Assembly: GCF_000497125.1 (NCBI RefSeq)
Contig: NC_090596.1
Location: 1,860,001-1,924,000, forward strand
Direction of reading: 5' to 3'
DNA: 64,000 nucleotides
Source of the DNA: Spironucleus salmonicida
Lineage: Eukaryota
Part shown: piece by piece, positions 13,955-38,679 of the stretch
How positions within the stretch are numbered: the stretch's first letter is position 1
How the letters are laid out: each line of letters opens with the position of its first letter
Translations under genes and position numbers: made by a program
Notes under the pieces: model-generated
Seen by the model: the letters and a program-made list of their open reading frames with translations, nothing else
Told to the model about the DNA's origin: nothing
Database searches by the model: none

Positions 13955-14058
13955 ATATTATATTATATTATATTATATTATATTATATTATATTATATTA
14001 TATTATATTATATTATATTATATTATATTATATTATATTATATTATATTATATTATAT

Positions 14059-14093
<35 letters not shown>

Positions 14094-14741
14094 ATATTAT
14101 ATTATATTATATTATATTATATTATATTATATTATATTATATTATATTATATTATATTATATTATATTATATTATATTATATTATATTATATTATATTAT
14201 ATTATATTATATTATATTATATTATATTATATTATATTATATTATATTATATTATATTATATTATATTATATTATATTATATTATATTATATTATATTAT
14301 ATTATATTATATTATATTATATTATATTATATTATATTATATTATATTATATTATATTATATTATATTATATTATATTATATTATATTATATTATATTAT
14401 ATTATATTATATTATATTATATTATATTATATTATATTATATTATATTATATTATATTATATTATATTATTATTTATATTATATTATATTATATTATATT
14501 ATATTATATTATATTATATTATATTATATTATATTATATTATATTATATTATATTATATTATATTATATTATATTATATTATATTATATTATATTTTTAT
14601 ATTATATTATATTATATTATATTATATTATATTATATTATATTATATTATATTATATTATATTATATTATATTATATTATATTATATTATATTATATTAT
14701 ATTATATTATATTATATTATATTATATTATATTATATTATT
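13955..14741. repeat. (TATTA)n pentanucleotide satellite with an internal poly-T tract (~14068-14093)
   Basis: Directly visible tandem array between paralogs A and B. Confidence 0.98.
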
Positions 14742-17700: not shown

Positions 17701-20700
17701 AATTCACAATTCATTGTTCATAATGAGGAATAAGGATTTAGTTGGAGCTAATTAGTTAATAAATTAAGAAAGCAAAACGGAATTGTTAAAATTGTAGTCA
17801 ATTGCAGAATTTAATTAACAATTACATCTCACTTCATCTTCATCGCTGAATCGAGATGTGGTGTTCGTATTACATTTCTTAGCAAGCTAGAGGTTTCTAG
17901 ATACGCTTACCATGCTTAATGGAGAATCGGATTAAGCCTAACTTAGCCAGTTATGCACTACAGGACAAATCGAAGGCATGTTTAAATAGCAGCAGATATC
18001 AGAAATTTCATCCGCAATAATCCTTGTTATATCCTTGTGTAGATAGTACCCTACTCATATGAGTGGATTAACTAAGCTTTTTAAATAGATTATCAAGTAT
18101 TCACAGTATCTGGAGATTTATGTGAATCCACTGTAGGTCTAATAGAATAATATCACCACGCTGAAAGAAATTTATACAGAGTTTTAGTCGCTTTTTAAAG
18201 GTGCATTTTTCATGTTTTTACAAAAATCTTTCGATAAATACTGGAACGTCGATACGCCAGATATAGATATGTACATTCGTGACGCTATTCAGAACTCCAG
18301 CGTTTGCTATGTAAAGCTAAAACAACTAGGTCTACTATAGAAGGATGAGAAACTTGCGATCGTAACTATTACTGATAAAACTTGCATTTCGAATCTATTT
18401 TTTGAGACATCTCCGCCGATGCCGGATTATCTAATTTCACTATTCGGGGTGGAGGATACAATAAGAGATTCATTTTCTAACAAAAAAATGCTATCAATTA
18501 AGACCCATGACGTGGATGAAGAGAAAGTTTCAAGCATTAATCTGTTGATGGATTCAGGAAACCACACTGGGGAAGAAATGTTTAAAAAATAAAAAGATAC
18601 CGGGATTGCAACATGTTTCCAGGTAACAAATAAATACCAGCAAAACTTCAAGTAGATTTGCCTGCACCACTAGGTGAGTCCATAATATGAAGCAAGAACG
18701 GAAAAAGTAGAAGCATACTAAGCACAGAAAGAGGTGAAGGTTTTAAGTGAAGTAAAAGCCAAAGTAGAATAGCTGAATAATGATGTAGCCCAAGCAAATG
18801 ATAAAGTAGAATAGCTGAAGAACGAAGTAGACGAAGCTGAAGCAGAACTAACTACAGCTAAATTAAAAGTAAAGGAATTAAAGGTTGAAGTCAACCAAGC
18901 GGAAGCAGAACTAACTACAGCTAAATTAAAAGTAAAGGAATTAAAGGTTGAAGTCAACCAAGCGGAAGCAGAATTAACTACAGCTAAATTAAAAGTAAAG
19001 GAATTAAAGGTTGAAGTCAACCAAGCGGAAGGAGAACTAGATACAGCCAAAACCAAAGTTAATTAAGCAGAAACAGAACTAACTACAGCCAAAACCAAAG
19101 TTAATTAAGCAGAAACAGAACTAACTACAGCTAAATTAAAAGTAAAGGAATTAAAGGTTGAAGTCAACCAAGCGGAAGCAGAATTAACTACAGCTAAATT
19201 AAAAGTAAAGGAATTAAAGGTTGAAGTCAACCAAGCGGAAGCAGAACTAACTACAGCCAAAGCCAAAGCAAGCTAACCAAATATAGATGCTAAAAATATA
19301 GTTATTTAGTACGAAAAACGGTAAGAATACGCAATGTTAAATGCAGTGTAAGAGATTGAAAAAGCAGAAAAAGCATTACTATATGCATAATATGCATCAG
19401 TTTCTCCAAGAAAATAGTTTAATATTGAATAGGCAGAGATATAGTTATAATAAGCAAAAGATTGGTAATAAATACTAACAGAAAATACTAATAAAGATAA
19501 TGATATTGAAAAAGCGGCCATAAAAGCGTAAGCTGAGTTTGAAATGTTATAAGCAAAGTATGATAATATTATTCATTCATAATAAATAAAGCATATGGCA
19601 GAAAAAGTAATAAATGTAAATTATTAAACTGAATTATTAACGTAGAATTAAACAGAAGCTATGAACATGACTGCGACTGCGAAATAACGGGTTGAAGACG
19701 CTTAAACAGATTTAACATCCAAATAAATTATATCAAAAGAACGCGAAGATTCTGTAAATGCCGCCAGGAATAAACTGAACAGATTAATAGAAATATTGAA
19801 GAAAAAAAAGGAACGGTAATCTACGACACAGGAAGAAACTACATTATTAATATAACAGGCTAGTAAAGAATTTGAATAGGTATAAGAAAACGCTAAGTAG
19901 CCAACAGCAGACACATTAGTTGCTACATAAAAACATTAAAGTGCAGTGGCAGATTAGAGTTTTGTTGATAAAATGCTAACATGTATAAAAGGTGAGTTAC
20001 TATTAGGAGAGAAATCATAAAAGGATGTACAAATCTAAATAGGGAAACAATCACCTTAAGACTAAGTTGAAATTTAATAATATATGAATATATGGAACTA
20101 GGCGATAGGATTTTAAACACCAACTAACGAATCTGAAACAAATTACGAAGACGTAGGACTATCGGTACTAGACTAGTAACTTGTGTTTGATATGCTCGAA
20201 TTATGTTAGCTATTTGATTAATTATCTTAAATTTAGTTGGCAAAAGAATCGAGTTGCTAATAGTAAATTCTAACCGCATCAAAATATGCGGCACTATCCG
20301 TAATACGACTAACAGAATAATATAACTAAGGCAATAACAGAAAAGTATTATAATAGCATGGCGGTGCAACTCCGAATTAGGTAAAAGTAATGTCAAAAGA
20401 GGAGAATAAGTAGTTACAAAACGTAATATCAGAATGGTGCACTAGCGTTCTAAAGAAAGGATAATAAGCATAAATCGAGATTAGTGATTTTATCACTTAG
20501 TGGAAAAATCTGTTCGGAGTGCCATAAATCATAGTTCATTTTGCGTTTAAAGTGTTATTAAGAAAGATAAAATAATTACTATAGTAATTAAAAGATTAAC
20601 TACAATTGCAGTAAAATATTTAAGATAAGAACGCGAAATCATATTACGGAACAAAAAATACAATTGTAGCTAATTAATTATAATAACCAGAAGAAAAATA

Positions 20701-21864
20701 ATAGTACTAGAAAAACAAATAGTTATTCAATGATAAATTTTTCTGTCTTGACATTTTCTACTTTGTGAACTGTAAACGCAACAGTACTTCTTCTATGTTT
20801 TGCATAGATTATCTAAGAAATATAGAAAATTAGACTGTTAAGAAGATTATCTAATAAAAAGATTTAAACCATTAGAAGAAAAAGACAGAAGAGCCTGCTA
20901 AATAATAAACGGAGGCTTAACCGTAAGTAGATCTTGAAATAAATCAATCCTATATATATTTCAAATTTAACTTACCTATAGAAGCAATTAAAGTTATATT
21001 CGTAGGAAAAACTATATAAGAAAAAAATAATTATTTTTATTTTAAAAAATAAAATGATTAAACTATAGAAAGCGTGTTACTTTAGGCAACGATTCCAATT
21101 AAATGTGGAAAATAGGTTACTAAAGTAGTTACTAAGTAATAGGGTAAATATTTATAAGTCTCATTTAATTTAAATATGAGTCATATTTTTGTAAACTTGG
21201 TAATTTCTATCCATTAGATAAATCCATAATTAAAGGTATTAATGGTATTAATGGCATGTGGATTTCAAATAATTGCTAATCAGGGACTATCAACGCTATA
21301 AAGTTTACAAATAATGTTTTGCTCTAAATTCTAGAGAAAATAAATTAATGTTTACTTGAATCAGCTATAACCTATAAGATACTGGCCAATGAAATTACTA
21401 TAAAATAAGTTATTGTTAAGAAAGATATTATTGGATTTTTGCTTAAAAATCATCTTTTCCCGGTCTCTATCGATGGAACTACTTTAATCGTCGATCGTCT
21501 AACCGAGGACAATAAAGAATTCTTGTACTCTTCGCAGTACGAAATTCTATGCAAGATTGCAATCCTAAAGTATAGAAACGCGCTTTCAGATCCCTAAATC
21601 GAATTCCTGCAAAAGAACGAAACCGAGGTGTTTGATGCAGCATGCAAGTTGATAGAATCTAAGGATGAAATTTTGACATTGAAAGTAAAATATTTACGTT
21701 AAAGCCCTATTGTAGAAGGGTAGAAAGGATATTTTGAGGAGTATTGTTTTGAAGTTTTTTAAACATCCAAAGAGAACTTAATGAATACGTTAACACAGCT
21801 GAATGCGGTTATAGTGGACATCGAGGAAGGCTTCCTCCACGTGATAATTCTTGAGAAAAAGTGA
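14777..21864 (+). CDS. Large P-loop NTPase family protein, paralog B (~2,360 aa) with a long coiled-coil insert; one apparent frameshift near 21,160-21,200
   Basis: ATG 14777 (MTDQDQNTKAE...). Walker A VMSQSSRSGKT (~15788-15820), Walker B VMLLVDEC (~16505-16528), YNPRGIETIFW, LAAGTDLALINF. The start frame hits TGA near 21650; the adjacent frame gives a more protein-like C-terminus ending FLHVIILEKK-TGA at 21864. Confidence 0.82.
18839..19270 (+). repeat. Intragenic coding tandem repeat: five 63-nt units (EAELTTAKLKVKELKVEVNQA), two 42-nt units (ETELTTAKTKVNQA-like) and one partial unit
   Basis: 63-nt units start at 18839, 18902, 18965, 19112 and 19175; 42-nt units at 19028 and 19070. Unit lengths are 3 and 2 heptads. 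Confidence 0.95.
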
Positions 21865-24800
21865 GGGTTTATTTGTTCTACTGCCTGATGTCACTACATG
21901 GGAAACTGGTGGGCTAAATAACTGCTTATTTATATTATCCGTTTCGTATATATTATATTGTAGAATTTTGAACGGCTTCCTTAAGCTAGAAATAAGGAAT
22001 TCCTAAATAAGTAAGGTTTTAAGAATAGATCAAAACTCTGTAAAACATCTCAGTGTTCAGATAATTTTTAAGCATTCTGGCTACATGATATTTTATAGGA
22101 ATTACTTTGCTTCAGCGCTTCAATTGCTAAATATTGGATGCTGCATTTGCGATAAACTTTGTTTCCCGATTTAGATTGGTGAATATCCTTGGTCGAGTGT
22201 GCTAAACATTCTTTTGCACTGGCCGTTTGGCGGTCTAAGATGACACATATTTCCATTATGGCGTCAAGAAAGTTTGCTCGTTTCCGTTTCAAGCGCATTT
22301 ACCATCTTAACTCAAACTGCCGATCAAGTAATAAAAGACAGCCTGGGCCGGCAAGCCGGTCTGCAGTACAATGTAGATACCCAAAATAGGTAAATGTGCG
22401 GTTTATGTTATTTTGAAAAATGGAATTACTGTGCTGAAAGTCTAGCTTCATGTACTACTCCGGGAGTATTAACAGAGCGGTATGGTGGTTTTGAGCTGGA
22501 CCAGTAGCGCATCTGCAAATTTAAAAAATTTAGGATAGTGGTGCTGAATTTAAGCTTAACATATATTGGTGCCTGCAATTTCAATTAGAAGGAGTAGTGA
22601 TTTAATACGATAGTGTATTTTGCTGATTAAAGTGGTTGCAAATGCACCATACTGGCATAGAGCTGATTTACGATACATTAATGATGAAATATTCTATCTG
22701 CAGTTTTCGCCATTAGCAGTGATCTTCGTTCCTGGTATTGCTAAGACATCGAGCCCCTTTATATTTCTTGGTTGAGGCTGGCCATAACTTCTAGGTTTGG
22801 GTTAACAGTCAGTGTTATTATTATGTAACATGACTTTGACAGATCAAAATAGCTGGATATCCTTCGTAATACTTAAAACACAGTCATGTAAACTATTTGC
22901 CAATAGGTAGCTGTAGGTTAATAGAGCAGACAAATTATTTCTAGCAACAGTAACTTGTTTCCGTATGCTAGTATTGCGATAGCGTAAGGAGTTAATATAA
23001 TGACTAAGTATGCTACGTATTATTAGAAGATTATAATTCCTATAATTCTCGCCTCCTGGAATGTACCTCGATTCTGGAGGTAAAACCGATATACAAGACA
23101 CACCATGTGACGTTCCTGACCATATTCATACTTAGTGAATCTGAAACTATTATTTGGCGATCGGTCGATCAGTAATGATGTTATCAAAGGATGTAGGAAA
23201 TTTCACCCCGCCTAATTGCAGTTATGTTACTTACAACTTAAGTAAGAAATAATGCTACAGGCATACTAGATGATACTCAGGTAAGTCAAATTACCATAAT
23301 AGTGGAAGAGAATCTGGTTAGGAGGCCTCGTGACGCAGAAGCATATTACAGCAATAAACTGGACAGCGCGAAATCCATAATTATTGTAGAAACGAATTCC
23401 AGCATACCATGCATAGTACACAACTTATGGGTTGAGCAGCGGGTAGCTGATGACTGTTGTGAGATGGCCTTTCTTCCTCCGAAGATACACGTGGCCTTTT
23501 AATAAAATTACAGACTACATCCGCTGACAGTGGTTAGGAATGCTGAATACCAACGCAGATAATGTAGTAGTGCAGTAGATGAAGATACACATGGCAAATG
23601 TAGATAGGCAGCAGGTAGTGTATATTGTAGTACTTCTGAGGAGTTATATGTTATTTAAAACTTTTAAACTACTTGCATTCATTTACTTTTCAAGTTTTTG
23701 AACACAAACCGCCACGTAGGAGTTGTAGCATGTTTACTATACCAATTTATATTGTATGTTAGTGTAGAATAAGATCTAGATCTTCAGTGTTGCGAATACC
23801 CAGCCTGCAAGCTTGCAAATTATCAGGATAGAGGATTGTGTAAAGAGGCGCATACACAGACTCTCGACTGGCATCTCAAAGCGAGGAAATATATAATTTC
23901 GCTGTCGTATGGTGGTAGCGCGTGTCTATTGGTTGTCAGTTTTCCTCGAGCAGTATCTAGCGTTACAAGTTTCTGTGGCAAGAAATACTAGATCTATAAA
24001 GAAGCATATTGATCATAAATATCTATGAATATTAGCTACTACGAAAGAGGAAATAAATAAAATTTTGTCATGCAAGGAGCAGCTGGAAGTATGGACTCCA
24101 AGGGCCATGCCAATAAAGTTGGTTAGAGCGGAACTGACTGATAATACATTGTCGAGTACAAAGCTAATTGGGCGAATAATAAGAAATCATATCAACTATA
24201 CAAGTACAATCACCTAGAATACCAAGCAACACGCAGTTTATCTTTGTATACAAGTACCAGTAAGTAGGCTGGACAGATAGAACTGTCAGCAGTAGCGAAG
24301 GAAGAAAAATATATAATCTCACATTTGGATCAGTTTTGTAGTTAGAGGTGTATTGATCAGGCTTGGCAAGGCTATCAGTACACTTAGAACCAGGTTTGCA
24401 TTTTTCATAATCTTACGATAATTGCGAAATTCAAATTCAAATCGCGAATAACAAGAATAATACTTACATATGTCATATTATCTCGATAATAGTATGCAGG
24501 TTTTGAAATTTTTATAATTAAATTTAGGTACTCTAATATAATTATATTCAGATAAATATATAGCATCCTATTACATGAAATAGCTATACTTGGAGAAATT
24601 GCTATTGAAGGAACATACTTATTTGCTATATAATAGTTATTGATAGAAATATTTAAAAAGATTATACCGAAACATCGTCACTAGTCTTTTTTAGCCTATT
24701 AAGTCATCGCATACATGAGGTAATAAACTATGCAAACTATAAAAATTATTGCTTATTTAACCTACGGGTAGATTATTACTGACGCAACAACGACTTCTAC

Positions 24801-25675
24801 TACTCATAATAGTTATATCCACGAAATACGTTATCTGAAACGCTATATATCAATAATTTAACCTAAATTTTTCAAAAGCTTATCAATAACTGCTCAACTA
24901 TTTATGCACCCATTTGTGTGTTTAATAATGTAAAATAATAACCATTGGTGCTTTCAAAAATATTGAGCACAATTTCATTTTCCAAGCAATATTCTTGAAA
25001 CAGTTTGAGTTCTAGATACAAATTATAATGGATCAAAAACTTGTAATACATAGCAGTGATGTATTTTTTGGACAGTTTCATACTTAATAATATCACGATT
25101 TTGAGTATATATCATTTAAATATTTGTAGATAGAGATGGATAGAGTGGTATTATTTGCATATCATTTTATAGGCTTTATCGTAAAATACTGTATTTAACG
25201 CAACTGGATTGGGTTTCTTCTAATATGAAATTTATGTTAGGATAAATTAATTGATTTTTGCAATGTATATGAGCATTACTAACAATTTGTATGGTGTGGG
25301 AATGTTCGAGCATAGTAACATATTTATATAACAAAAGAGCACTAGTCTAGAAACAGTACGAATGCCTTTTCAAGAATGTTAAGGCTTATTAGAATGTAAA
25401 TACTAATGTAATTAGTACAGATGCATATTGGTGACGACTACTAATGTATTTATAATAGTTATTGGTAAAGATGAGTTTTGACAAGATTGCAGACTAAGCA
25501 CAGTATATGGTGCAACATTATGAGTCATACATTATTTATAATGAAATTTTCTTAAGAGTAATTAGATAGTCTGGAATATCCTAAATTCAGCAGCGTATTA
25601 ATTTTCTGCTGGTTTACCGCATATTACTGTAAGCGGATTGAATATTTAAGCATGAACGAAAAACATAGCACTGAG

Positions 25676-27200
25676 TCACTTTTCTAAGACACTGCGCAAG
25701 CTACAACCTTTGAGCCGAAAATACCCTTAAGTACGGCATCGCACATCATAATTGGGGCCTTTACAACGCATTGTCTTATTTTCTTAGCTGCTTCTATGCG
25801 TTCATTTTTAGGGATAGGCTTGGAAAGCTATACAGTAAGTCTAACAGCTTCGCCATTCTCAACTGCAGTAGATGTACAAAATGTTCTAAACGGTTCCACA
25901 ATTTCTGGTTTAGCGTAGTTTATGCCGCCTTTGCATTAATTGATTGTGATTTCTTCAATCTCATTGGCATCCCGATTTTTACAAATATGGTACACCCATT
26001 GGGACATAGAACACAAGTGATCTATATTTGAGATTTATCAATCGCCACTTCTTCAAACTTTTCAATGGCGACAGGTACATTACTAACATATTACTTTATA
26101 CGAACGTGCAGCATCTCCGCTGGGACTGCGTGAGCAACCTCCGTCTCTCCCGCAACTTGCATCTCCCAATAACCTTGCTAACACGCATGCTTATTGACTA
26201 CGAATCGAGCTCTTACCAAGGAATTGCGGCGCAGAGAACAATATGTTTTCATCAGCTAGTACAACCGGTGTACCGGGGGCTGCAGATGTTTCCAAAAGAA
26301 GAGCGGCCCTCTTCGGCAGCATCGTCCACCAAATTATGAACCTAAATGCAATTTCCGGCTGAAAGAAGCGCCCGCTAACAAGCTTGAACGAACCAGCCTC
26401 TATAGGCCTGGCTTTTGGATTAACTTTTCCACCCAAAGACACGGCAACTTTATCCTGAGGAATAAGGCCAACCGAGAGTGACAAACAGCCGCATTCGAGC
26501 CTTGTAGTTTTCGTGAGATCTGGCTGCAAAGTTACAGGATCCATCGGAGCAAGGTACACCGCGGCAACCCGAGTTTCCCCAACTAGATTTAAAGCCGTGG
26601 TTACCAGATGGAGCGGAATTCCGAAATCTGTTCAGCACTATTCGATATTTCGCTAAAGGCCAGAGCAGCGCGGTAAGAGCCCGTAGACGCCCAAAGCGCG
26701 CGCCCTCCAAAGTGCACCTGTGGACCATAGTCAGACCGATAGCGCCAGAACCCAGGATTCCACGTTCTTCCCAGGCGGCTACCCGTCCATGTTGATCATT
26801 TGCTGCGCCGAGTACCGGAATGCTCGCTCCCCCTCACGGCAGCCGCTCCCGAAATCAACACCTTTGCCGAGAAGTGCCGCACACAGAGGCCCCTCGTGAC
26901 GGTCGAAATTGTGTACCCGCTGCCAGTTTCTGTGCACTGAAACACGAACGAGTGCATAAGAATGCTCGAATTCGACTGAAGGCAGTCCGCCTCGAGCAGC
27001 TCCGCATACTCGGGCCCGTGAGCTCCTGCTTGTACTTGCAGAGCCCGAAGCCGCCGTGAATGCACTGCGCCAGAATTCACTACCACGTGTGCTATTTTCT
27101 AGCACCAGGTCCGCTTTTCCGAGTATCGTGGCCGTACGCTGCAGTAGCACCAGTCGAGATATTTCAGCACCGTTCGTTCCAGAGCGCGGAAGGCCCAGGT
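25676..27200 (-). pseudogene. Multiply frameshifted FAD/NAD(P)-binding oxidoreductase fused to a DUF1667-type CxxC domain (resembles the C-terminal half of anaerobe/diplomonad glycerol-3-phosphate dehydrogenase fusions)
   Basis: Motifs stitched across frames: [91 protein letters not shown], then ITCVLCPNGC...QCKGGINYAKPEI...KPIPK...VKAPI. Ends at AAGTGA. The 5' boundary is approximate. Confidence 0.8.
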
Positions 27201-27240
27201 GAACATCAGCTTCCAATTGGTATCTTGCGTCTCCTTGCTT

Positions 27241-27578
27241 TCATCGAGTGGCACGCCATCTATGCAGGCGTTGTAACGCAACGTTTCTGACCGCGGGCTG
27301 CTCGCTCTGCGCGAGGTGCCGGAGGATTTCGCCCCAGCTCCCGTCCACCTCCTTCTGGATCTTGAGCCCCAGCTGCTGCTTCTTGGCCCTGCATACCGAG
27401 TTTTTGGGCGAAACGCGGTGCGCGAAGTCCAGCACGAGCTGGTGCGAGGGCGCGATCAGCGAAGTTAGGAGTCTGTGAGCGTGATCTCAATATCTGTTGG
27501 CAACAACTGTGGGGGCAGCGTGAATGCTACGAAAATCGTAGTACTGGATTCCGAGATCTCGTATGACAGGGAAAGCAT
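27241..27578 (-). pseudogene. CS (p23/HSP20-like) domain fragment resembling the DYX1C1/DNAAF4 N-terminus, frameshifted
   Basis: MLSLSYEISESSTTIFVAFTLPPQLLPTDIEITLTDSQLR / IAPSHQLVLDFAHRVSPKNSVCRAKKQQLGLKIQKEVDGSWGEIL matches the CS beta-sandwich pattern ending K....W..L. One frameshift near 27458. Confidence 0.5.
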
Positions 27579-28585
27579 TTTTCAAATGTGGCAAGGGATA
27601 ATATATAAGAATTAATGTATAATATTGTGTAAATGTTTATTCGTAAAACGTGTTTTGCTATATTTTGTATATATCTTGAAAAATGAACTGTGCTCAGAAA
27701 GTCTCCGAAAAGGTAAATCCTTCATTAACGAATATCGTAAAATATGCAGGCGGTGGGAATGCACCGTCACATGTCTGTGGAGCCTTGTATGCAGTTTAGC
27801 TGGCAAATCCCAGTGTATAACCGTTATTGGAGGAATAATTCTCAAAAAAATTGGAGGTGTTGAGTGCAGTGAGCTTTATGGGAAAATATCATGCGATGAA
27901 TTAGTTGAGTATGCAGTCAGTTTAGTAAAGTGATGATTCATTCGTTCTCTTCTAATGTCATTAGAATTCTTTTCTTTGACTTATTGTTTAACTTAATAGA
28001 TTCCGATGTGACGAACTCAATTTTCAGTAACAGAAAATTTCATCAGAATGATTTTCTAAACCCTGGCTACTCCTATTTTTCCTGAACTTGATCTTTTATT
28101 TTTTTGTTTGGATCCTTTTGGATCAGAAATATAGTTCTCTTGAAGCTGGTTAAATATTTTAAATAGTTTTCACTTCATCTTTAGTTAATAAATATTAGAT
28201 TTGTTTATAGTATGAGCCAAATTGATATGTTTCAATCTTATTAATTATTATAAACTTACTATAGTCTTGCATAGTGCTAAGTACATCAGGAGTATGATAA
28301 TAGTTCTATTGTGCAATTTCTTAAGGTAGTACAACTATTACTTCTCTATCTTTATTAAGCAATCTTATTTATTCAACTTTGCTACATACGTTATTACTTT
28401 CAAATTTCTATTTAGTACTAGCTTTCTTATTTATCTTTATGAGTTCATTATTTATTACTAATTCGATGAAAGCTAGGTCATCTCTTTTTCTTCAATCAGC
28501 AGTTTTGCGTTTATGAACTTCACCATTTCTTTGGTTAAAAAATGAAGGTACTATCTTTTAAATATAGATAAAAATTAACAGATAT

Positions 28586-29662
28586 TCACTTAACTTGCTT
28601 ATCAAAGTTTATAAAGATCATTGGGTCTGGTTAAATAATTATATATAAAAAACTATATTTGAATTAGCCTCTCTTCGAATAGTCGTTTCCAAAATAATCA
28701 ATTGATCTATTATACAATTCAATAAACTATTTCTATTCGAATTCTTAACTTGTTATCCTTCCAATATCCTTAAAGATATCTTTTATATGTTCTTCCTTGA
28801 GACCGTTCATTAACAAGAAAGTTGTAAACAACTATCTAAAAGGTCCATACAATTTCTTAATAGAATGCAAACATGAAATGGTCCCCCAAATTCCAAGATA
28901 TATTCTTTAAATAATTAGTTTATAGAAATCAGATTCAGTTGTAGTTTGAAATACTGAACTTCCACTCATGTCATCTAATAATAAAACTATTTTTATATTC
29001 GTATCTAATATTTATTATAACGCAATCCAATTTATTCATACAGCAACTACGTATACTAATCAACATCATCACCTAAGCAATCTTTCTATAAAACTAAACA
29101 TTCTTAATACTATTGCTTTAGCCACTCGAATTGTGAAAGTATGTTTTTGAAAACTTGGAAGAATAGTTTTTGATCTCCATTTTTTAATTTCTTTATCTTT
29201 TAAAGTAGTTCGTATCTAATCTTATGTTATCAATGATAGATTTATAATGGTTTTCATTTTCTATAATTCTTGACATAACATTAATAACTTTTATTTTGAA
29301 GTCATTCCATTCGAATCAACAAATGGTATATTAAGTATATTGTCTTTGGTTTTTGATTTTTAATAAGTTTAATCACAATCGATAGTTGGACTTAAGAAGA
29401 ATGTATGAGTTATAGCTCTATTATTTAAATGAGGGTCATCTAAATTATACTTTGATAGCTTACTTTAATCTAATACGCTTAATTTATTTTATTCATTGAA
29501 TACGTTTTGACTGTTCCTGCTGAACCCATAAGTCCAAAATAACAATAACCATAGCTCATTATTTCAATTTAGACCTCCTGGGATCCGGACGGTTGCGTCA
29601 GAGTATTTTTTTTGTTTTTATATCAAAAATTGAATTTCGTCTTATTGTATATTGTACTCCAT
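28586..29662 (-). pseudogene. Degraded A32-like (FtsK/HerA-clade) viral DNA-packaging ATPase of Polinton/virophage type
   Basis: Code-6 minus strand: GLMGSAGTVKTYS (decayed Walker A), HTFFLSPTIDCDQTY, KIVLLLDDMSG (Walker B), FYKLIIQRIYLGIWGTISCLHS, FIELYN...KYSFLYI...FINFDKQVK-TGA. The 5' half has frameshifts and an in-frame TGA. Confidence 0.68.
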
Positions 29663-29707
29663 ATATTTAATTGAAGCAAAAATAATAATAAATTAAATGA
29701 ATGAATG

Positions 29708-30520
29708 TCACCTTAGCAAAAACCTACAAAAGATATAAACTGATTCTTGTTAAACTTCTGCTTGTGATGCAACTCTTATACTATCAGTTTAGTTTAAAAT
29801 ATTAAATGATAATTAATTAGTTCTGTTAGTCATATCTTTCCAAACAAATATATATGGATTCAAAGGCTACAGCATTAAACTTTTATATATTAAGATACTA
29901 ATGGTTTCATCACATTAATTTGCCTTTATATAAACTGTATTTAAGTATCTAAAGAACTTAGCTGAATTAAGTTCACTTGTAAGATCTCTTTTAATAATTA
30001 ATATTTCTTTTGTTATTTCTAAATCTATCTTTGGTTAATAGCTGAAACATGCATTCAAATTTAAATTTTTACTGTTGGATCAGTAGTATACTCATCGAAT
30101 GGTAATTTAAACTAATCATAAAACATCTTATATTCAACTTCAGGAAGGATGTGATATTAATTATTGATACGATTATGTGAATCTTAATAAACCAATTTAA
30201 AATGTTTATCGTTTATTATTTGCAATGGTACTTTATCATTTCTAAAAGCTGTTAAAATTTTATAATGAGTAATATTTATATAGTATGTCAATATTGAACT
30301 TTATAAATTACATTACTTTTAAAAGATGAATGTTTCAAATATATTATCATTACCAGGGTTTAGTTACGATTGACCATGGTCCTCTTAGGGATCAGTAGCC
30401 CAATGGGATGTTACTGTCCTTTGTTTTGCCTCCGCTAGCAATAATCCCTTTTAATTGATCCTAACTAATAACCTCCTGTTAATTATGTTTTGAAAAAAAT
30501 AGGGGCCTGTTGCCAAAAGC
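29708..30520 (-). pseudogene. Degraded ORF directly upstream of the packaging ATPase; possible minor capsid (penton)-like C-terminus
   Basis: C-terminal part reads YLNTVYIKANQCDETISILIYKSLMLQPLNPYIFVWKDMTNRTNQLSFNILNQTDSIRV...VYIFCRFLLR-TGA and stops about 45 nt before the ATPase ATG. The identity is a weak pattern impression plus context. Confidence 0.25.
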
Positions 30521-31899
30521 TGACCTAGCATTATCTAGTATATCCTTTCTCTGCTTTGGAATATCCGTGATAGTGTAGGATATACTATTATTTTACTAGA
30601 TAGGAGTTAGCAGAGCGAATCAGAGTAACAATACTAAAAGCAAGTGAAATTATTTGTGCAAGATGTATCAGTAGGTGCTCAGGATGTGAGATTCGCCAAA
30701 AATATAACCAGAGCTTGCTAAATATATTATTTGTGTAGCATTATATTGCTCTATGTATTTGAAAGGATTGATCCTGATATCTTGGGCTGCTAGAGCACTT
30801 ATTTTACTAAGTATGTATTTTATAACTATGCAGATATATAATATATTAGCAAGGCGCACAGTAGGTAATTAGTTGTATACAGAAACTAAACACAAAATAG
30901 ATTTAAAAGCTTACCCATAATTAGTATATTTCGATGCAGTTGGTAATAATTACAATACTAGTTTATATAAAGATCGTTTACTCAGTATTAGACATGATCT
31001 GCTTGATGTATTTAACTTAACTAATCCTGCACAGTATCAAATTTATCCCTATCACTATGCATTAAATTGTTGCTAATGCATTCCATAGGATACAATGTTC
31101 TGGTTTTGAGTCGAAAATATGCTATGAATTATAAGAATATCAAATATTTAGAACTAATTAGTTTTAACCTGAATTTTTGATATAAAATAATGCTAAATGT
31201 TTACAATATATATTAAATACTAATATAGTATAATCAGTAAACAAAACTTATACTAGTAAATATAAATATAACTAAATCTGCTCATATGCATACTTTGAGT
31301 TTCCCTATATAATAACACTAGCTATGCATATTTTTATAAAATATCATATAATATAATTTTAATTATCAGAGCAGTAATTTTAAAGTCTTAAATGTCGCAG
31401 CCTCTCATCGATAGCGGAAGCGCTTTAAAAATCGAGATTTCATATTTTATTATACATTAAATTTAACTAAAATGCTATTCCTTCAAAATGCGTTCAATAA
31501 GTTACCCAGACAATTCACAAGCGCCATTTGGCTAATGCTATCCACTACATATCGAATGTACCTATCATACCTCCATTTATCACTATTTCATCATTCCTGA
31601 TACCGCCAAGAGTAAATGCAAAGCACCCTGCAAACCGATCCTCAGAAGTTTGAAAACAGCATCGTCAAGATGTCCCAAAGCGGTACGGTTTTAATTCTGC
31701 AAAATACGCCGATTGCACCGATTTAAAGTTGATAAATTCGTGAAATTTCAGCGGAAATTTGGTCGATAACTGCATGGAATCTCGAGAGCGCGAGAGCGAA
31801 GTATACACTGAAGGGAATTTATTAGGGACGAAGTTGCATGAGCTGCACGAAATCTAGAGATTTGGGAGCGAAGAGGGCCAGCGAAAATGTGACTATCAG

Positions 31900-33120
31900 G
31901 GTGACGAGATGGCGCTAGCTGGTGGTCAGGACCCAGCGAGGTGGCAATATCATAATTTATTAAGAATAGGACTGACCTTATGCTAGCTTAGGACCTCCAC
32001 ATTTTGGTGCTACGAGCCTGAGTCGATGCTGTTGGCATAGTGAATAATGGCTTAAGCGTAAGATTTGGCATAGGTGGCTGCTACTGAAGTGGGTACCACT
32101 AGTACGGTACCCCAAGTAGTTCCATAGACAGCACCAAGGCAGGCATGAGTGGTACTGCATAGTGCTCGATGACAATACAATACTATAGTATATATAGTAA
32201 TATCTTAAATGGAGTTTAGTAGTATATATGCATTGGGAGTGGTGCTTGTAAGGATATTTAGTATATTACTATTGTATTTATAGTATATAGCACTACCCTT
32301 ACTAATATATATTCACTTATGAGCCCAGGTACACAGTACACTAATAAGGCTATTCTCACTAGTAATGCAAGCAAGGCTATGCCGAAGACCGTTTGCATTT
32401 TATCTTTAATACCTGCCTGCTACCGAACTGGGCACCACCAGTACGGTACCCGTAGTAGTTCCATAGATAGCACCAAGGCAGGCGTGAGTGGTACTGGGAT
32501 AGTGCTTGATGACAATACAATACTATAGTATATATAGTAATATCTTAAATGGAGTTTAATAGTATATATGCATTGGGAGTGGTGCTTGTAAGGATATTTA
32601 GTATATTACTATTGTATTTATATAATATACTACTATGCTTACTAATATATATTCACTTATGAGCCCAGGTACAAGGTACACTAGGAAGGCTATTCTCACT
32701 AGTAATACAAGCACAGGCTATGCCGAAGACTGTTTGCATTCTATCTTTAATACCCGGATGATGCATAATCTATCAAACATGGTACTCTGCAGTCTCACCC
32801 GGTATGTTTATTAAGACCGAAGCATAGGGATGGATGAATGTTAGATGGTAACGACGACTCGCAGGATGAGTTTTACTGAAGAGAAGCGACGTCAGCAGAA
32901 GATGATACTTATTGCATCTAGTAACGATAGGGATGCGTGGGATCATGCATAGCGGATGAGCTAATGTATTTTTAGGAAACTCCTATATTTACTAATAATG
33001 CGTGATAGTTAAGTAGTATTGTATATTGTTAATTCCTTACTAGCGCTCAAATACAGATAGAAAAACTACATTAGTTTATTTTATACTTTTTGTTTCGTAA
33101 AACACTTAACATTCATTAAT
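31900..33120. repeat. Duplicated upstream block (copy 2) before paralog C, with an internal ~340-bp tandem duplication (~32078-32413 / 32414-32754)
   Basis: Matches 7366-8245. The segment CTGCTAC(T/C)GAA...TATCTTTAATACC occurs twice in tandem here and once in copy 1. Confidence 0.92.
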
Positions 33121-33227
33121 CATACTATTTATTAATATATAATAAAAATACATAAAGTTTTCAAAGGATAGCAAAGTATTTTATATAATAATACCCTATT
33201 TTACATCTTACCTCTTTAACTCCTTAA

Positions 33228-36200
33228 ATGTCATCAGGTTTATCTATTGAGTTTAAAGCTCTTCCATATTCAGTTGACTAGGGTTATAATGTAATAATTA
33301 ATAAAAAGATTAAAAAGCTTAAATTTACTATAAGAGATAACGAAATTAGTTAATCTATCTAACTTGATAGTCAATAGTAATATATTCTGCGCGCCAATAT
33401 TAGTACTAAAGAACAACTTTGTGCTGTATAAATAGTGCTACTATACAAAAAGTTAAAAAAAATTATACCAAACTGTGCTATATAGCTAGTATAAAAACAC
33501 GAACTTTTTGTTTATGACGATCTTTACTTCTGGAATAATATTGGAATTGTAGCTGCCCAAATGGGACTTAAGACCAAATCAATTAAGATATATAAAGACC
33601 ATAAAGGGGAAAATTAAACACCAGATTTAGATCTTTATCTAGCAGAGATCAATTAGTACGATTTACAGTATATTTCATTTTATGATAGCTTCGACACATT
33701 GACGATTCTATAACCAGAAGGTATAAACAAGTGTGCTTTCCATGAAAATTTAATACTGATCTAGTTAGCTGCAATCTAATACCAGCATACAGAAAAGTAC
33801 CCGTTAATATTGCCATTAGTTTTTGGATTTTCTGCATATCAGTTATATACTGACAGATTTGTTCAAATTTTTTAGAAAGCTGAAGTTGCATCAGCATAGG
33901 ATCTTAAGCATTCTATTTTAAGAAAAATATTCGAATTGTCCAATATTGTTTATAACGAACAAGTATTACCAGATAAATTTAAAGTTATGAATCTGTTCCA
34001 ACTACCTATCCACTTTATCGGGACCGGGATCTGCCTGTTCATGTTCCAGCAGCTCTGCCACGTGTCCTACCTCTTCAAGGCGGAGTATTTTGCACTATTC
34101 TCGTTGGTTAACAATGATTTTTACGAAACTCTTACGAATGCTGTCATAAGCCAGAGTTCCAGGTCTGGGAAAAGCGTAGCTCTCTACACGCAGTACTTTT
34201 TCCACCTCCTGAAGGGAAATGTTCCAATTTTGCTCAATAAGAAAGGATCTGATGACTAACCTCTATATAAGTACAGGACACACTCATTTCACGAGCAACT
34301 AGTTGATCAGTATAAAGATATATTCGAGTTACAGAATTTAAAAAATTACAAAGAAAAAGTACTTGCTGATGTTTGTAAATTCCATACCTTTCAGTTGGAA
34401 AGCTTAGACTAGATGTCTTTTATTTACTAGACTATGATTATATTTATTAACAAAATTGAGGGCAACTTGTAATTAGTTCAAAAGCTAAAATACGATAATT
34501 CTATATAGTTGCAATTCGATTAACTAAAACTAGCTTCGTTTTTCATTATAGATACTGCAAATATTATAAATGATATAGACTAAGTATTTCTTGAATAATA
34601 AAAGCGAAATAATATATAATTGAAACACCCTATCATTTTGGTAGATGAGTGCTTGCAGTCATAGAAGAAGAAGTTTTCGAAATGTGTTAAATTGTGTCAG
34701 TCGTTGTTCAAATATTACGAAGAGAAGCTGATAAAGTTAGGTAAAGATTAGTATCTAGAGATACAAAGCACATTGGATAATGCAAAATTTTGGTAGATAG
34801 GTAGATTAGGAAATATCAGAAATACCAAATATCATTTAGCTATCAATGTTATTTAACAGCTTCTGAACACTGACTCACTTTTAGCTGTAAAAAGGAAACT
34901 GGATCGAATTAGTGGGAAGCTAAAATATGAATACTAGGATATTAGCTTGTACCAAACTGTTGAAAACATTATAACCAGTGTTTAATCACAAACTGCAGAT
35001 TAGAGATTCGATACTATACACGCCAACTAAGAAATTATAGTGGAATATTTTAAATCTCTTAATAACATACTAGGAAAATCAGAGTATATTCTCATAGCGA
35101 TGGAGCACCTTCACCTCGAGATTGATGATTACGACCTTCTCGACGAGCTAGTCGTTCACTCACCGCAGATCCTGAATACTGGGAACAGAACAGATTTTAG
35201 AAAGATATTATTTTCGGGAATGTCGTCTTACAGGAATCGAGGACAGTACTACGAAGATTTTGAAGTGGATTTCTACAAATTGATCCTATCGTTGTTCAAC
35301 CCCAGAGGGGTCGAAACATCATTTTGGAAAGCATTTTCAATTATTGCATTTAAGAAAATTGAACATAGCTAAGTGGATGACAAGTTATCTAAGGATAAAA
35401 AAGAAGAAAAAACTAGTAGAGAGAATGCTTTCCCTATAAGTTAGCAGGGCATGCTAAAATAATATTGGTCTTCTTCAGTCCAGTCTTTAATATGTAAATA
35501 TTTTATGAATACAAATACAGAGGATTTACATTAAGATCTATAACAGATGATTCTAAAACTGCCAAAAATGTCGGAATAATACAGTACTAAATACGAAATG
35601 CCTAATTTTGACTATTTTACTGTTATAATGGCTGGAACAGATCTTGCCATCATCAATTGCCTTACTCTCAATTAATTTTGCTACAATACCATGTTAAGTA
35701 GAGGTTGGTTGCACTATATTAATACTTAAATGTTAGGATATGTTCAGCCTCACGCGTCATTGCTGTCTAGCTTGCAGTACGAACAGCGTCGGATGGTAGT
35801 GGATGACAAAAGTTATAAGGATTCTATTAATAATGTAGAATAATCAGTCAAGACATTTGCTAAAGACACCCCAATTTTGGTATCACTACTGTACTCGATG
35901 ATGACGGAGAAGTCGGTTGAGATGCAGTTCATGTGCTCATCGGTATGCCCGTCTATATGGTTTCAGTATAAGTAAAAAATATTAAATTTCAATGCAACCA
36001 GCAGTCATGTAGTCAGTTTTTGTGTAGAAGGTAAAAAGTAAATTCCAGAGCAAACTATGTATCAGTTTGATAGCCTCACCTAAACCTATAACAATATTAT
36101 CATACACAAAGGTGCTGAGAATGACGCTAAATTTAAGCTCACAAAAGGAGATGCTCATTTTGAATTACTACAAGATAATCAAAATTATAATATCAGCTGC

Positions 36201-38561
36201 ATTGCATCGTCGACTCTGAACTACGAGGTGGTATCCGTTTTGAACTATCAGCTCATGCTTACATTCATAGAGTAATATTCAACCTCAGAGATAAGTGTAG
36301 CATATGCTTAAGATACGCTATAACAAATGTCTAAATTATTCTAGAGAAGCGTATTGATGGAGTTCATGCAGGTTATCCTGTTCATGGCGAAGCTCACATG
36401 GCAGTCGGAAATCCTAATTAAGAACATTTCTCTGATTATGAGGTACGTGGACACTGGGCATATCTACGTCTAATACGTGCATGGTGGAAGTATTACTGCA
36501 GCGAAAAGCGAGGATGTTTTTAATTTGCTGGAAAGAACGTCCGTGCCGCATAAGTTTATGTTCCTAAACCCCACCTTTGACTATGCGTTCTAAAATTTTA
36601 ATAAAGACCCAACTATTTCTATATATGAATAGGTACTGGATGATTCGGTAGCAGCTGCGAACGAAACTTTTCAGTTGCTGCGTTATAGATCACCCGCCTA
36701 GACAGAAAGTACTAACAAAGAGGACGAATCCTCCATCAAAGAAGCCATTGTGGAGTAGGATGGTGGAACTCAGGATGATGTTAGCAGCACAACCTAGATT
36801 GAAAGTACCACCAAAAAAGGGAATCCTCCACCACAGAAGTCAATATGGAGTAGAATATAGGATCGTACTAAGATGTTGTTAATGCAGGTATATACGATAA
36901 AAACTATATCGCAGGAGAATCAGTGCAAGGCATAGGAAAACTTAAAATACTAAGAAACATGCCCTATGCTAATTATCGTGATCCCTTTCAACAAGAAGAT
37001 GTGCTTTACGGATAGTTTGGACAAAGCAAGGCACAAAATATTTGACTTCATCGTCACGTTCCACGGGTACCCTGACCTCGGTTTAGAGAAAATAGATGGC
37101 TGCCAAGTGCTTCCGATAGAGTGCGGTCACCATGTCCCCGAAGTGTTGGCCGAAAAGGTTAAAGCGTTCACGCTTAATAATGTATTGCAGATTGGACTTG
37201 ATAAGAAAGGAGCACACCTGATATTAGACGTTAACTATAAATCTTAAAATTGGTAATATAATTTGTAAAAAGCTGAAGATTTAGTAAAGCTGCAGTAATA
37301 AACGGAAAAAGACAAAAATGTCAAACATGCTGAAATTTTACAATCAGAAAAATAAAAGATTGTAAAACACTCATTTTATAAAATAAGTTGCCGCTAAGAT
37401 TGCTATACCGAAAGTTTTATTGAATTTTTAAAAATCAATATTCCATTCAATGTGTTTTAAGATTATGGATCTAATTTTATTTAAATAAAACAAGAGTTAG
37501 ACTAGACTGCTAAAGATAAATTAGATACAATGGAATAATTTTAGAAATGCATTAATTTTGATATTTAATTCTAACCATAAGGCATAACTTAATTTGAATT
37601 GGGTAGTACTACAATGAAAGCATAAACGAATGATAAATAGATTCGGCTGTCAGTTTTATTCATATAAGATAAATAAAGAATTATCTATCAATTAAGCCAG
37701 TTATATCATATGCTAGGCTTTAACATATGCAATGACGAAATTATTAGTGTATTTTTCACTGTCAGTGTTGATATATACAAATTTTTAGAGAAATTGTAGC
37801 TTCGTCTCGTATTTGCATAAGGTGAAAATGATTATCAGTATTTATATGTAGAAAACAATCCTGACACGATACAATAGAAAGAAGAAGTATTGAGTGCATA
37901 AATTTTGATGGATGCAAACCTAGCAGCTGTGTAAGCCTTAAATAACTAATAGAATTTTTCCGCAGATGCACGTAATCTTGTCATGTATACTGCCATAATT
38001 TTGTCATTCAAAGCAGATGTTAATATTAAGTGTTAGTATTAAGCCAAAAATTTTTAATTTACGATAACTTATAATGATTTACTTGAACAACTGTCCACTT
38101 TTGGTAGTATAATTTATTAATATAAAAATGGTACCTTATTCTTAAAAAATAGCAATATCCATTTGATTTCTATTTTCCGACTTAACTCACCTAGTTTTTA
38201 GAGTTTTTGCGAGGATGATTGGAAATATTTTAGCTTATTAACACAATTTTGCAATTAGTAAGAGAATACGAGGTAGTAGTTATTTTAATAAAAGTTCTAG
38301 ACATACTTTGATTAAATTTCGAAGCTGCTTCAGAAAGTTACCGTCGATAAAGTTGTTTACTTTGGATTTTAATACGAATGTGAATAGATTACTTATGGCA
38401 AGCGTGAACAATTTAGTTAACGTTAATTTTTAAGCCCAAACAAGTTAGACAGTAAATAGTTGCTGAAGTTATTTGTGGAATCGAAAGTAATTATACTTAG
38501 TACCAAAATAAAAGATAACAAGAAGAATAAAGTTTTGGTAAAAATTTATTTTTTTGAGTGA
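33228..38561 (+). CDS. Large P-loop NTPase family protein, paralog C (1,777 aa, code 6)
   Basis: ATG 33228 (MSSGLSIEFKAL...). ORF fragments at 33936, 35040 and 36966 share this frame. Walker A VISQSSRSGKS (34143-34175), Walker B PIILVDEC (~34629-34652). Ends VKIYFFE-TGA. Confidence 0.9.
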
Positions 38562-38673: not shown

Positions 38674-38679
38674 TATTAT

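What the first reader, a model, noticed from the sequence alone, without database searches (positions are those of the whole stretch)
28000..30520. Fossil Polinton/virophage-like element recoded to the host genetic code
A decayed A32-like packaging ATPase (28586-29662, minus) shows the FLSPT..D..Y, LLLDD and FxELY...KYxFLYI pattern I associate with Polinton/PLV/virophage ATPases. It is closely flanked by co-oriented ORF remnants: one ends at 29708 and may be penton-like, another starts near 28526. It uses TAA/TAG as sense codons and ends in AAGTGA like host genes, implying a virus adapted to a code-6 host. I am not aware of such elements being well described in diplomonads. No TIRs, polymerase or integrase were seen.
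Basis: partly seen in the sequence, partly recalled or inferred. Interest (0 to 1): 0.75.

Follow-up and report, generated by a model that had tools for sequence, protein, structure and literature searches.

The report
Fossil Polinton-like virus genes in Spironucleus
A broken viral DNA-packaging gene and two broken neighbour genes in a fish-parasite genome are the remains of a small DNA virus lineage of diplomonads that reads TAA and TAG as glutamine, as its hosts do.

Summary
Window 28586-29662 (minus) is a pseudogene of a P-loop ATPase: a family profile matches it at E 6.6e-54. It has four frameshifts and damaged Walker A and RRH motifs.

The family was found only in diplomonads (Spironucleus salmonicida, Hexamita inflata, Giardia) and in unnamed metagenome proteins. 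A confident model of an intact member (pLDDT 85.8) is closest to viral genome-packaging ATPases: STIV2 B204 at Z 16.0, and A32-like proteins of giant viruses.

One metagenomic relative lies on a 22-kb contig. It sits beside a protein-primed DNA polymerase B (PF03175, E 1.4e-28), and all these genes use TAA/TAG as sense codons and stop at TGA.

The two ORF remnants flanking the window's ATPase weakly match two further genes of that contig, and nothing else in the 64 kb does.

The window holds a roughly 3.2-kb dead fragment, repeated on at least eight contigs of this genome. It has no polymerase, integrase or terminal repeats. Capsid identity ("penton-like") could not be tested, and nothing points to a virophage. 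This is a new member of a known kind, of moderate interest.

The parts
28586..29662 (-). Pseudogene of an A32-like (FtsK-HerA superfamily) genome-packaging ATPase, stop codon included. It has four frameshifts. Walker A is degenerate (GSAGTVKT), Walker B is kept (LLLDD), and RRH has become RIY.
   Evidence: Family HMM E 6.6e-54; frame map; alignment A1; fold of intact relative P0008.
29471..29583 (-). Segment of the ATPase that carries Walker A. It lies in a different frame from the segments on either side.
   Evidence: The P0007 and P0037 copies read through the 29470 break in one frame.
28991..29211 (-). Segment of the ATPase (helical insert up to the strand before Walker B), again in the other frame. 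The break near 29211 is shared with another genomic copy (P0037).
   Evidence: The P0006 copy reads through the 28990 break.
29708..30564 (-). Remnant of a 285-aa gene with one frameshift near 30058-30079; ends AGGTGA. Its C-terminal part weakly matches a gene of at least 512 aa on the PolB/ATPase contig L001. Fold unknown; a capsid role is inferred only.
   Evidence: P0088 and P0075 are unbroken copies. Match to L001 1-1584(-): E 6.9e-4, 13.7 bits, 0 of 1000 shuffles reach it.
28123..28491 (-). Remnant (122 codons stop-to-stop plus TGA) that matches the 165-aa gene next to the PolB on L001. Function unknown.
   Evidence: E 2e-4, 16.9 bits over about 92 residues; 0 of 1000 shuffles reach it.
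28170..28526 (-). 118-aa ATG ORF that overlaps the previous part in another frame. It is annotated as a hypothetical protein in four copies and ends AAGTGA. No homologue was found outside this genome. Either it is not the original frame, or the gene changes frame after its start.
   Evidence: The N-terminal likeness to the L001 gene is not significant (336 of 2000 shuffles).
30565..31285 (-). Part of the repeated unit with no recognisable gene. It is colinear with another copy (P0075 ORF, several frames). It may be the decayed 5' half of the capsid-candidate gene; this is inference only.
   Evidence: P0075 aligns from 31285 to 29711. No match to the L001 protein's N-terminal half.

Best explanation
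Window 28123-31285 is a dead fragment of an endogenous Polinton-like DNA virus of diplomonads. It holds three co-oriented gene remnants: a gene related to a protein of at least 512 aa of the intact-looking relative, the genome-packaging ATPase, and a small gene.

In a live element the ATPase, a FtsK/HerA-type motor of the A32/B204 kind, would pump the linear dsDNA genome into a preformed capsid. That role is inferred from the fold and from the family's known function.

The lineage is expressed by the host nucleus's rules. TGA is its only stop, TAA/TAG are read as a residue (glutamine under code 6), and it uses the host's AGTGA stop/poly(A) motif.

The window copy cannot work. It has four frameshifts, a Walker A glycine replaced, and the RRH motif lost.

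The fragment lies on at least eight contigs of this genome. Some breaks are shared between copies, so part of the copy number comes from duplication of an already dead fragment rather than from new integrations (inferred).
For: (1) ATPase homology. The family profile hits the window at E 6.6e-54. phmmer against 1.84 billion representatives gave 31 hits at E <= 1e-3, 16 at <= 1e-10 and 4 at <= 1e-30.

(2) Fold. The AF2 model of P0008 has pLDDT 85.8 and pTM 0.86.
- BFVD: the named rows among the top 50 are mostly A32-like or packaging ATPases, including Medusavirus (1.2e-8), ASFV B354L, mimivirus, adenovirus IVa2 and mavirus. The best row of all is unnamed (2.8e-11).
- PDB Foldseek: the top rows are HerA, STIV B204 and FtsK.
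- VIA-align against 48,161 chains: the top row is the STIV2 B204 packaging NTPase, Z 16.0, rmsd 2.9 A, 185 of 204 residues.

(3) Viral context of a relative. L001 holds 17,004 of the 22,362 bases of its contig. It carries an intact 363-aa ATPase (9914-11005) and a 1171-aa protein with DNA_pol_B_2 at E 1.4e-28. It also has two HNH endonuclease matches (one above Pfam's cut-off, one below it) and a protein encoded with internal DNA repeats.

(4) Both window flanks, and no other of 738 window ORFs, match L001 genes (12 queries). The E-values are 2e-4 and 6.9e-4, and 0 of 1000 shuffles reach either score.

(5) Code.
- 26 of 357 aligned codons are TAA/TAG, against 79 of 1787, 173 of 2291 and 103 of 1777 in long host ORFs.
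- In L001, TAA/TAG sit at PolB codons 779, 905 and 914, inside the Pfam match (555-960), and at ATPase codons 307, 309 and 353, ahead of the conserved C-terminus. All 7 complete ORFs checked stop at TGA; the eighth runs off the locus.

(6) 3' motif. The ATPase and the 118-aa ORF end AAGTGA. AGTGA makes up 72 of 1693 TGAs in the window and is the host motif (PMC3916229).

(7) Repetition. Pieces of the unit are annotated on six contigs of 1.07-1.92 Mb (the window's own included) and on two small ones. The same three-ORF order occurs at SS50377_14497-14499.

(8) Shared breaks. The window and P0037 share the break near 29211; the window and P0074 share the one near 30065.
Against: - Pfam finds nothing in the window copy. 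Pox_A32 passes its cut-off in only 2 of 10 relatives, and there over the P-loop only.
- The profile search against PDB sequences returns only generic P-loop (ABC) matches.
- No major capsid protein, penton, protease, integrase or terminal repeat was shown in the window or in L001.
- The flank matches are short and weak (13.7 and 16.9 bits).
- The gene order differs between the window and L001.
- 5,358 bases of the L001 contig were not seen. It is not known whether L001 is a free virus, an episome or part of a chromosome.
- BFVD holds viral proteins only, so by itself it cannot tell viral from cellular. The PDB searches give the control: viral B204 ranks first, but cellular HerA, VirB4 and DndH lie within 1-2 Z units.
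- Five IMG/VR scans found no relative.
Confidence: 0.75

Rival explanations
1. The ATPase is a diplomonad host gene family: an old capture of a viral A32-like ATPase, now cellular. The window copy is simply a dead paralogue inside a duplicated chromosome segment, not part of any virus-like element.
For: - The family occurs in all three sequenced diplomonad genera.
- The Giardia gene is highly conserved between isolates, 89.5-99.4%.
- Intact single genes exist, such as P0015 in S. salmonicida.
- The window copies share breaks, which fits segmental duplication.
- A neighbouring large host gene (33228-38561) also has a copy at >= 90% identity on an unplaced contig.
- H. inflata is reported to have widespread duplication (PMC11787283, passages).
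Against: - On L001 the relative sits beside a protein-primed PolB in a dense gene block.
- Both window flanks match genes of that block.
- H. inflata carries at least four lineages only 27-41% identical to each other, each in several copies of >= 90% identity on different contigs.
- The two S. salmonicida lineages do not group together in the tree, although support is weak (85/86 and 81/67) and branches are long.
Confidence: 0.12
2. The fragment comes from a giant virus (Nucleocytoviricota) insertion, since the closest named structural matches are giant-virus A32 ATPases.
For: The named BFVD rows near the top are Medusavirus, ASFV, mimivirus and others. A giant-virus genome that needs code 6 has been reported from metagenomes (PMC13524828, passage).
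Against: - BFVD holds few Polinton proteins, so the ranking is biased.
- The relative's polymerase is the protein-primed DNA_pol_B_2 type. From my knowledge of these families, this type belongs to Polintons, adenoviruses and linear plasmids, not to giant viruses.
- The related contig is 22 kb.
- No other giant-virus marker was seen in the window.
Confidence: 0.05
3. The element is a virophage-type parasite of a giant virus of diplomonads.
For: The mavirus FtsK-HerA ATPase is among the BFVD matches, at rank 46, E 9.9e-5.
Against: No virophage-type capsid protein, protease or primase-helicase was found. No giant virus of diplomonads appeared in the literature searches run here. The rank of the mavirus match is low.
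Confidence: 0.05

Closest known systems
Polintons/Mavericks and related endogenous viruses of Metamonada (Trichomonas vaginalis; Streblomastix strix elements that use TAA/TAG = Gln), Bellas et al. 2023, PMC10120064 (passages read)
   Same: Integrated small dsDNA virus-like elements in metamonad genomes. The S. strix elements use their host's reassigned stop codons, as these do. A relative here carries a protein-primed PolB.
   Different: The host group is different: diplomonads (Fornicata), against parabasalids and an oxymonad. That paper's text does not mention Giardia, Spironucleus or Hexamita; its supplements could not be seen. Those elements were defined by their major capsid protein, which was not shown here. 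The ATPase here carries a long helical insert between the second strand and Walker B (residues 96-180 of the model).
Tlr1 elements of Tetrahymena thermophila (Krupovic et al. 2014, PMC4028283, abstract seen in a search listing)
   Same: Polinton-related elements with capsid genes and an ATPase, living in a host that I recall also reads TAA/TAG as glutamine (recalled, not tested).
   Different: The host is a ciliate. No comparison of sequences was made here.
A32-like genome-packaging ATPases of double-jelly-roll viruses (vaccinia A32 / Pfam PF04665, STIV2 B204, adenovirus IVa2)
   Same: Same fold and same motif order: Walker A, second strand, Walker B, then R-H after the next strand. B204 scores Z 16.0. 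P0032 also passes the Adeno_IVa2 cut-off, 23.6 against 21.
   Different: Sequence similarity is too low for Pfam in 8 of 10 members scanned. The proteins are about 330-360 aa long because of a helical insert of roughly 85 aa. A histidine stands where I recall a glutamine in A32 (recalled, not tested).
Protein-primed PolB genes already noted in diplomonads: Giardia intestinalis pDNAP in Yutin et al. 2015 (PMC4642659, Fig. 6 legend) and PolB BLAST hits in Hexamita (PMC11296320, passage)
   Same: They show that Polinton-type replication genes exist in diplomonad genomes.
   Different: Those are single-gene mentions. No element, ATPase or genetic-code usage was described in the passages read. Table S13 of PMC11296320 could not be seen.

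Membership tests
FtsK-HerA superfamily, A32-like packaging ATPase | Walker A GxxxxGK[ST] | tested here: met
   Met in intact relatives: A3 consensus GxxGxGKT, and GNAGCGKS in L001. The window copy itself is damaged, reading GSAGTVKT.
FtsK-HerA superfamily, A32-like packaging ATPase | Walker B: hydrophobic strand ending in DD/DE | tested here: met
   KIVLLLDD in the window; aligned with IIMDD, MIDD and IFED in relatives.
FtsK-HerA superfamily, A32-like packaging ATPase | Fold closest to FtsK/HerA-type translocases and viral packaging NTPases | tested here: met
   Model pLDDT 85.8. B204 scores Z 16.0, rmsd 2.9 A, 185 of 204 residues, with HerA, VirB4 and FtsK below it. Foldseek PDB and BFVD agree.
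Pfam PF04665 Pox_A32 | Score at or above the gathering cut-off (22.8 bits) | tested here: inconclusive
   Window copy: no hit even at E <= 10. Of 10 relatives scanned, 2 pass (25.6 and 27.8 bits), mainly over the P-loop stretch.
Polinton/Maverick in the strict sense | [quoted passage not shown] | tested here: not met
   None in the window: the L001 PolB as query gave no hit among 738 window ORFs. It is present beside the relative on L001 (PF03175, E 1.4e-28).
Polinton/Maverick in the strict sense | Retrovirus-like (rve) integrase | tested here: not met
   No Pfam hit in the window flanks or in any L001 ORF scanned. A PDB sequence search with the 408-aa L001 protein gave 0 hits. 5,358 bases of that contig were not seen.
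Polinton/Maverick in the strict sense | Terminal inverted repeats | tested here: not met
   Only short AT-rich pairs, 71-86% complementary, in 22000-36000. 0 inverted pairs of 25 nt or more in L001's 17 kb.
Polinton-like viruses / double-jelly-roll virus lineage | Double-jelly-roll major capsid protein and single-jelly-roll penton | tested here: inconclusive
   The AF2 model of the 285-aa neighbour (P0088, 5-row alignment) has pLDDT 28.2 and is unusable. Pfam, the PDB sequence search and the ESM Atlas gave nothing.
Virophages | Virophage-type capsid protein, cysteine protease, dependence on a giant virus | not tested
   No candidate genes were recognised. The only link is the mavirus ATPase at rank 46 in BFVD.

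The most novel reading that the evidence does not exclude
Diplomonads carry their own old lineage of Polinton-like viruses, and it split along with its hosts.
- A standard-code branch includes Giardia. Its ATPase gene is 99.4% identical between the WB and P15 isolates, so it may still move or be under strong selection.
- A branch in Hexamita, Spironucleus and their relatives reads TAA/TAG as glutamine. The 22-kb contig L001 may be a near-complete, possibly still active, genome of this branch.
- The packaging ATPase of the lineage is a distinct subfamily with a long helical insert.
Probability: 0.4. Interest if true: 0.7.

Novelty: new member of a known kind. Interest (0 to 1): 0.55.

Why it matters
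It extends Polinton-like endogenous viruses to diplomonads, a group that includes the human parasite Giardia and the salmon parasite Spironucleus. It names a previously 'hypothetical' protein family in three genomes as a viral packaging ATPase.

It also gives a second metamonad case, after Streblomastix, of a virus lineage tied to a host with reassigned stop codons. Because Giardia keeps the standard code and the Hexamita/Spironucleus group does not, the family offers a way to ask whether viruses followed their hosts through a change of genetic code.

For annotation, it shows that several short S. salmonicida gene models are pieces or wrong frames of three pseudogenes.

Tried and rejected
Searches and tools that gave nothing
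- Pfam and PHROGs on the window ATPase: nothing meaningful.
- Word-index protein search with the read-through ATPase: no hit. It missed relatives that the full phmmer scan later found.
- Profile of A3 against PDB sequences: only ABC-type P-loop matches.
With P0075 residues 252-526 it gave only scores of 0.85 or less and TM of 0.36 or less, so no lead.
- AF2 of the 285-aa neighbour: pLDDT 28.2, useless.
- IMG/VR scans with P0032, P0025, P0008, the L001 669-aa protein and the L001 PolB: no relatives.
- JGI metagenome scan with P0032: none. Alignment A2 was too diverse for pattern scans.
- Rfam and tRNA scans of the window: nothing.

Ideas tested and dropped
- The in-frame TGAs at residues 198-209 of the one-frame reading are not premature stops; they lie out of frame.
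- The downstream gene might start at ATG 28526 and shift into the homologous frame. The N-terminal likeness to the L001 gene is not significant (336 of 2000 shuffles).
- The 408-aa L001 protein might be an integrase, a motif impression of mine. No Pfam or PDB support.
- A decayed N-terminal half of the capsid-candidate gene might lie in 30565-31285. No match was found.

Expression
- No RNA holder is listed.
- Three runs guessed to be RNA have low-depth contigs over parts of 28623-29662, mostly 85-95% alike, so they come from other copies. This is not evidence for or against expression.

Literature
- No paper in the library joins 'diplomonad' and 'Polinton' beyond two giant-virus catalogue papers. 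I read the passages of one (PMC13524828); the preprint I saw only in the search listing.
- No paper joins Hexamita inflata or Spironucleus salmonicida with Maverick, Polinton or virophage among the 25 rows listed of 374 hits.
- No paper cites the locus tags.
- The H. inflata genome paper has no occurrence of Maverick, Polinton, virus or viral. The S. salmonicida genome paper has none of 'transposable' or 'virus'.
- Supplements were closed and may hold relevant lists.
Full report
**What the window is.** The window is AT-rich DNA of a eukaryote that reads TAA/TAG as sense codons. Three ORFs of 1777-2291 aa carry 79-173 in-frame TAA/TAG each. Exact look-up shows that the window's own ORFs are on record on a 1.92-Mb NCBI contig. 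Near-identical copies are named Spironucleus salmonicida. No whole genome was available to search.

**The observation.**
- Read in one frame with TGA as X, 28586-29662 (minus) gives 359 residues with FFLSPT..D..Y, LLLDD and KYSFLYIIIQP. Walker A lies in another frame.
- Pfam finds nothing in it, and a word-index search found nothing.
- A full phmmer scan of 1.84 billion representatives gave 31 hits at E <= 1e-3, 16 at <= 1e-10 and 4 at <= 1e-30.
- I looked up 20 of these 31 clusters. Three are S. salmonicida, six are Hexamita inflata, and one is Giardia (97 members; isolates WB, P15, GS and DHA2). One has no organism, and nine are unnamed metagenome or Logan proteins. None is from a named virus or a non-diplomonad. 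The other 11 were not looked up.
- A profile of 27 members hits the six-frame translation of the whole window at this locus only (172 bits, E 6.6e-54, plus 21.6 bits for the Walker A frame).

**State of the gene.** Comparison with the intact S. salmonicida paralogue P0015, with H. inflata P0008 and with fragments of other copies gives the true reading:

| Segment | Frame |
|---|---|
| 29662-29584 | first |
| 29583-29471 | second |
| 29470-29213 | first |
| 29211-28991 | second |
| 28993-28589 | first |

- That makes four frameshifts.
- The TGAs seen in the one-frame reading are out-of-frame artefacts.
- Walker A is GSAGTVKT, against GxxGxGK[ST] in the family. The invariant RRH is RIY. Other copies read GSAGTGNT and RRH or RRY.
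- The break near 29211 is shared with the P0037 copy. The breaks at 29470 and 28990 are absent from the P0007/P0037 and P0006 copies.
- Contigs of a DNA run include variants with single-base indels at 29470, 29585 and 30065 (table 4).

**What the family is.**
- An AF2 model of P0008 from the 27-row alignment is confident (pLDDT 85.8, pTM 0.86).
- In BFVD the best matches include A32-like packaging ATPases of giant viruses, ASFV B354L, adenovirus IVa2, a corticovirus NTPase and the mavirus ATPase. The best named row scores 1.2e-8; the best row overall (2.8e-11) is unnamed.
- BFVD holds viral proteins only, so I used the PDB as a control. Foldseek ranks HerA, STIV B204 and FtsK first.
- VIA-align against 48,161 chains ranks the STIV2 B204 packaging NTPase first: Z 16.0, rmsd 2.9 A, 185 of 204 residues. 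HerA, VirB4, DndH and FtsK follow at Z 11.8-15.5.
- Pfam's Pox_A32 passes its cut-off in only 2 of 10 relatives, and there only over the P-loop.
- The family is therefore a divergent A32-like member of the FtsK-HerA superfamily, assigned by structure rather than by Pfam.
- It has a long helical insert, residues 96-180 of the model.

**Viral context.** One relative (P0019) lies on a 22,362-bp JGI metagenome contig, of which 17,004 bases were fetched as L001. Under code 6 the contig is densely coding. It holds:
- the ATPase, complete at 363 aa with all motifs;
- a 1171-aa protein with DNA_pol_B_2 (PF03175, E 1.4e-28);
- two proteins with HNH endonuclease matches, one above Pfam's cut-off and one below it;
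- a 669-aa and a >=512-aa protein with no database match;
- a 441-aa protein whose gene has internal DNA repeats.

TAA/TAG lie inside the PolB domain match and ahead of the conserved ATPase C-terminus. All 7 complete ORFs checked stop at TGA; the eighth runs off the locus. No integrase, capsid family or inverted repeat was recognised.

**The neighbours in the window.**
- The upstream remnant is one gene, 29708-30564, with a frameshift near 30058-30079. It is unbroken in copies P0088 (285 aa) and P0075.
- I used 12 L001 proteins as queries against 738 window ORFs, leaving out the two simple tandem arrays. Only four hits appeared. Two are ATPase pieces. The third is 28126-28491(-) against the L001 165-aa gene (E 2e-4, 16.9 bits). 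The fourth is 29711-30079(-) against the L001 >=512-aa gene (E 6.9e-4, 13.7 bits).
- None of 1000 shuffles of either window ORF reaches the real score; the maxima are 10.4 and 10.0.
- On L001 these two genes are adjacent, next to the PolB.
- The matches are weak. Still, they fall exactly on the two flanks of the ATPase and nowhere else in the 64 kb.
- The annotated 118-aa ORF (28170-28526) overlaps the homologous frame in a different frame. Whether it marks the original start could not be shown.
- The fold of the 285-aa gene could not be predicted (pLDDT 28), so 'penton-like' remains untested.

**Host-like expression signals.**
- 26 of 357 aligned ATPase codons are TAA/TAG, a density like that of the host's long ORFs.
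- The ATPase and the 118-aa ORF end AAGTGA, and the 285-aa gene ends AGGTGA. Two long host genes in the window end GAGTGA. AGTGA accounts for 72 of 1693 TGAs.
- AGTGA is the published overlapping stop/poly(A) signal of this species (PMC3916229, section 11, passages read).

**Copies.**
- Pieces of the unit are annotated on six contigs of 1.07-1.92 Mb, the window's own included, and on two small contigs. Once they occur as three consecutive genes in the same order.
- Colinearity with P0075 runs from 31285 to 29711. Contigs of other copies diverge near 28100-28112 (table 7).
- Shared breaks imply that some copies arose from a fragment that was already dead.
- No terminal repeats flank the unit.

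**Family history.** A tree of 19 rows, midpoint-rooted, separates Giardia plus one metagenomic cluster from the code-6 group (89/82). Within the code-6 group, the two S. salmonicida lineages do not join. Support is modest and branches are long.

**Literature.**
- Bellas et al. 2023 describe a Metamonada capsid group in parabasalids and Streblomastix strix. The S. strix elements use TAA/TAG = Gln. Their text does not mention diplomonads.
- Yutin et al. 2015 list a Giardia pDNAP in a figure legend.
- PMC11296320 mentions PolB BLAST hits in Hexamita.
- The H. inflata and S. salmonicida genome papers do not mention such elements.
- Within the searched library, the ATPase family and the element therefore appear undescribed for diplomonads, while the kind of element is known.

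**Verdict.** This is a real feature, correctly read by the first stage. It is a fossil three-gene fragment of a Polinton-like virus lineage of diplomonads that uses the host's code. Capsid identity and strict Polinton membership remain open.

Noticed in passing
window 25500-27600: A block of up to 58% GC in a genome region of about 30% GC. Its minus strand encodes a DUF1667 domain at 25700-25925 (E 8.9e-15, 54.9 bits). The rest has no Pfam hit and no long clean frame. It may be a gene or pseudogene of prokaryotic origin lying next to the viral fragment.
   Followed up: partly
window 278-1984, 8370-13733, 14777-21652, 33228-38561, 55273-59948: Several paralogous very large proteins (up to 2291 aa) with no meaningful Pfam hit (one has only a sub-threshold crescentin-rod match). 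One has 63-bp coiled-coil repeats (18834-19261). The last locus looks split into three ORFs. One paralogue has a copy at >= 90% identity on an unplaced contig.
   Followed up: partly
window 38679-49289, 60756-64000, 13946-14740: Long simple tandem arrays: (TAATATAG)n over 10.6 kb, (GGTA)n running off the window end, and (ATTAT)n over 0.8 kb.
   Followed up: no
window 32078-32754: A 340-bp unit repeated twice at 92% identity, between the viral fragment and the next large gene.
   Followed up: no
Giardia proteins P0052, P0053, P0054, P0055 (relatives, not in the window): The Giardia member of the ATPase family is 99.4% identical between isolates WB and P15 and 92.9% between WB and GS. As I recall, that is higher than the usual protein identity between these assemblages. 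It suggests strong constraint or recent movement.
   Followed up: partly
window 29662 (other copies): In three runs guessed to be RNA, contigs about 90% like the ATPase stop matching exactly at its start codon. They continue into the same GC-rich sequence, which is not in this window. At least one other copy therefore has a different upstream neighbour (tables 7 and 8).
   Followed up: no
L001 5704-8015: Two ORFs with HNH endonuclease matches lie between the polymerase and the 669-aa gene of the metagenomic element. One scores 35.1 bits, above Pfam's cut-off; the other scores 17.2 bits, below it. ORFs 6297-8015 and 7715-9724 overlap by 300 bases, so one of their starts is probably wrong.
   Followed up: no
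window 50574-52733 (minus): A 719-aa ORF whose C-terminal 550 aa is a flavin amine-oxidase/NAD-binding protein (PF01593, PF13450). The first 170 residues or so look like non-coding read-through, so the true start is probably further downstream.
   Followed up: no
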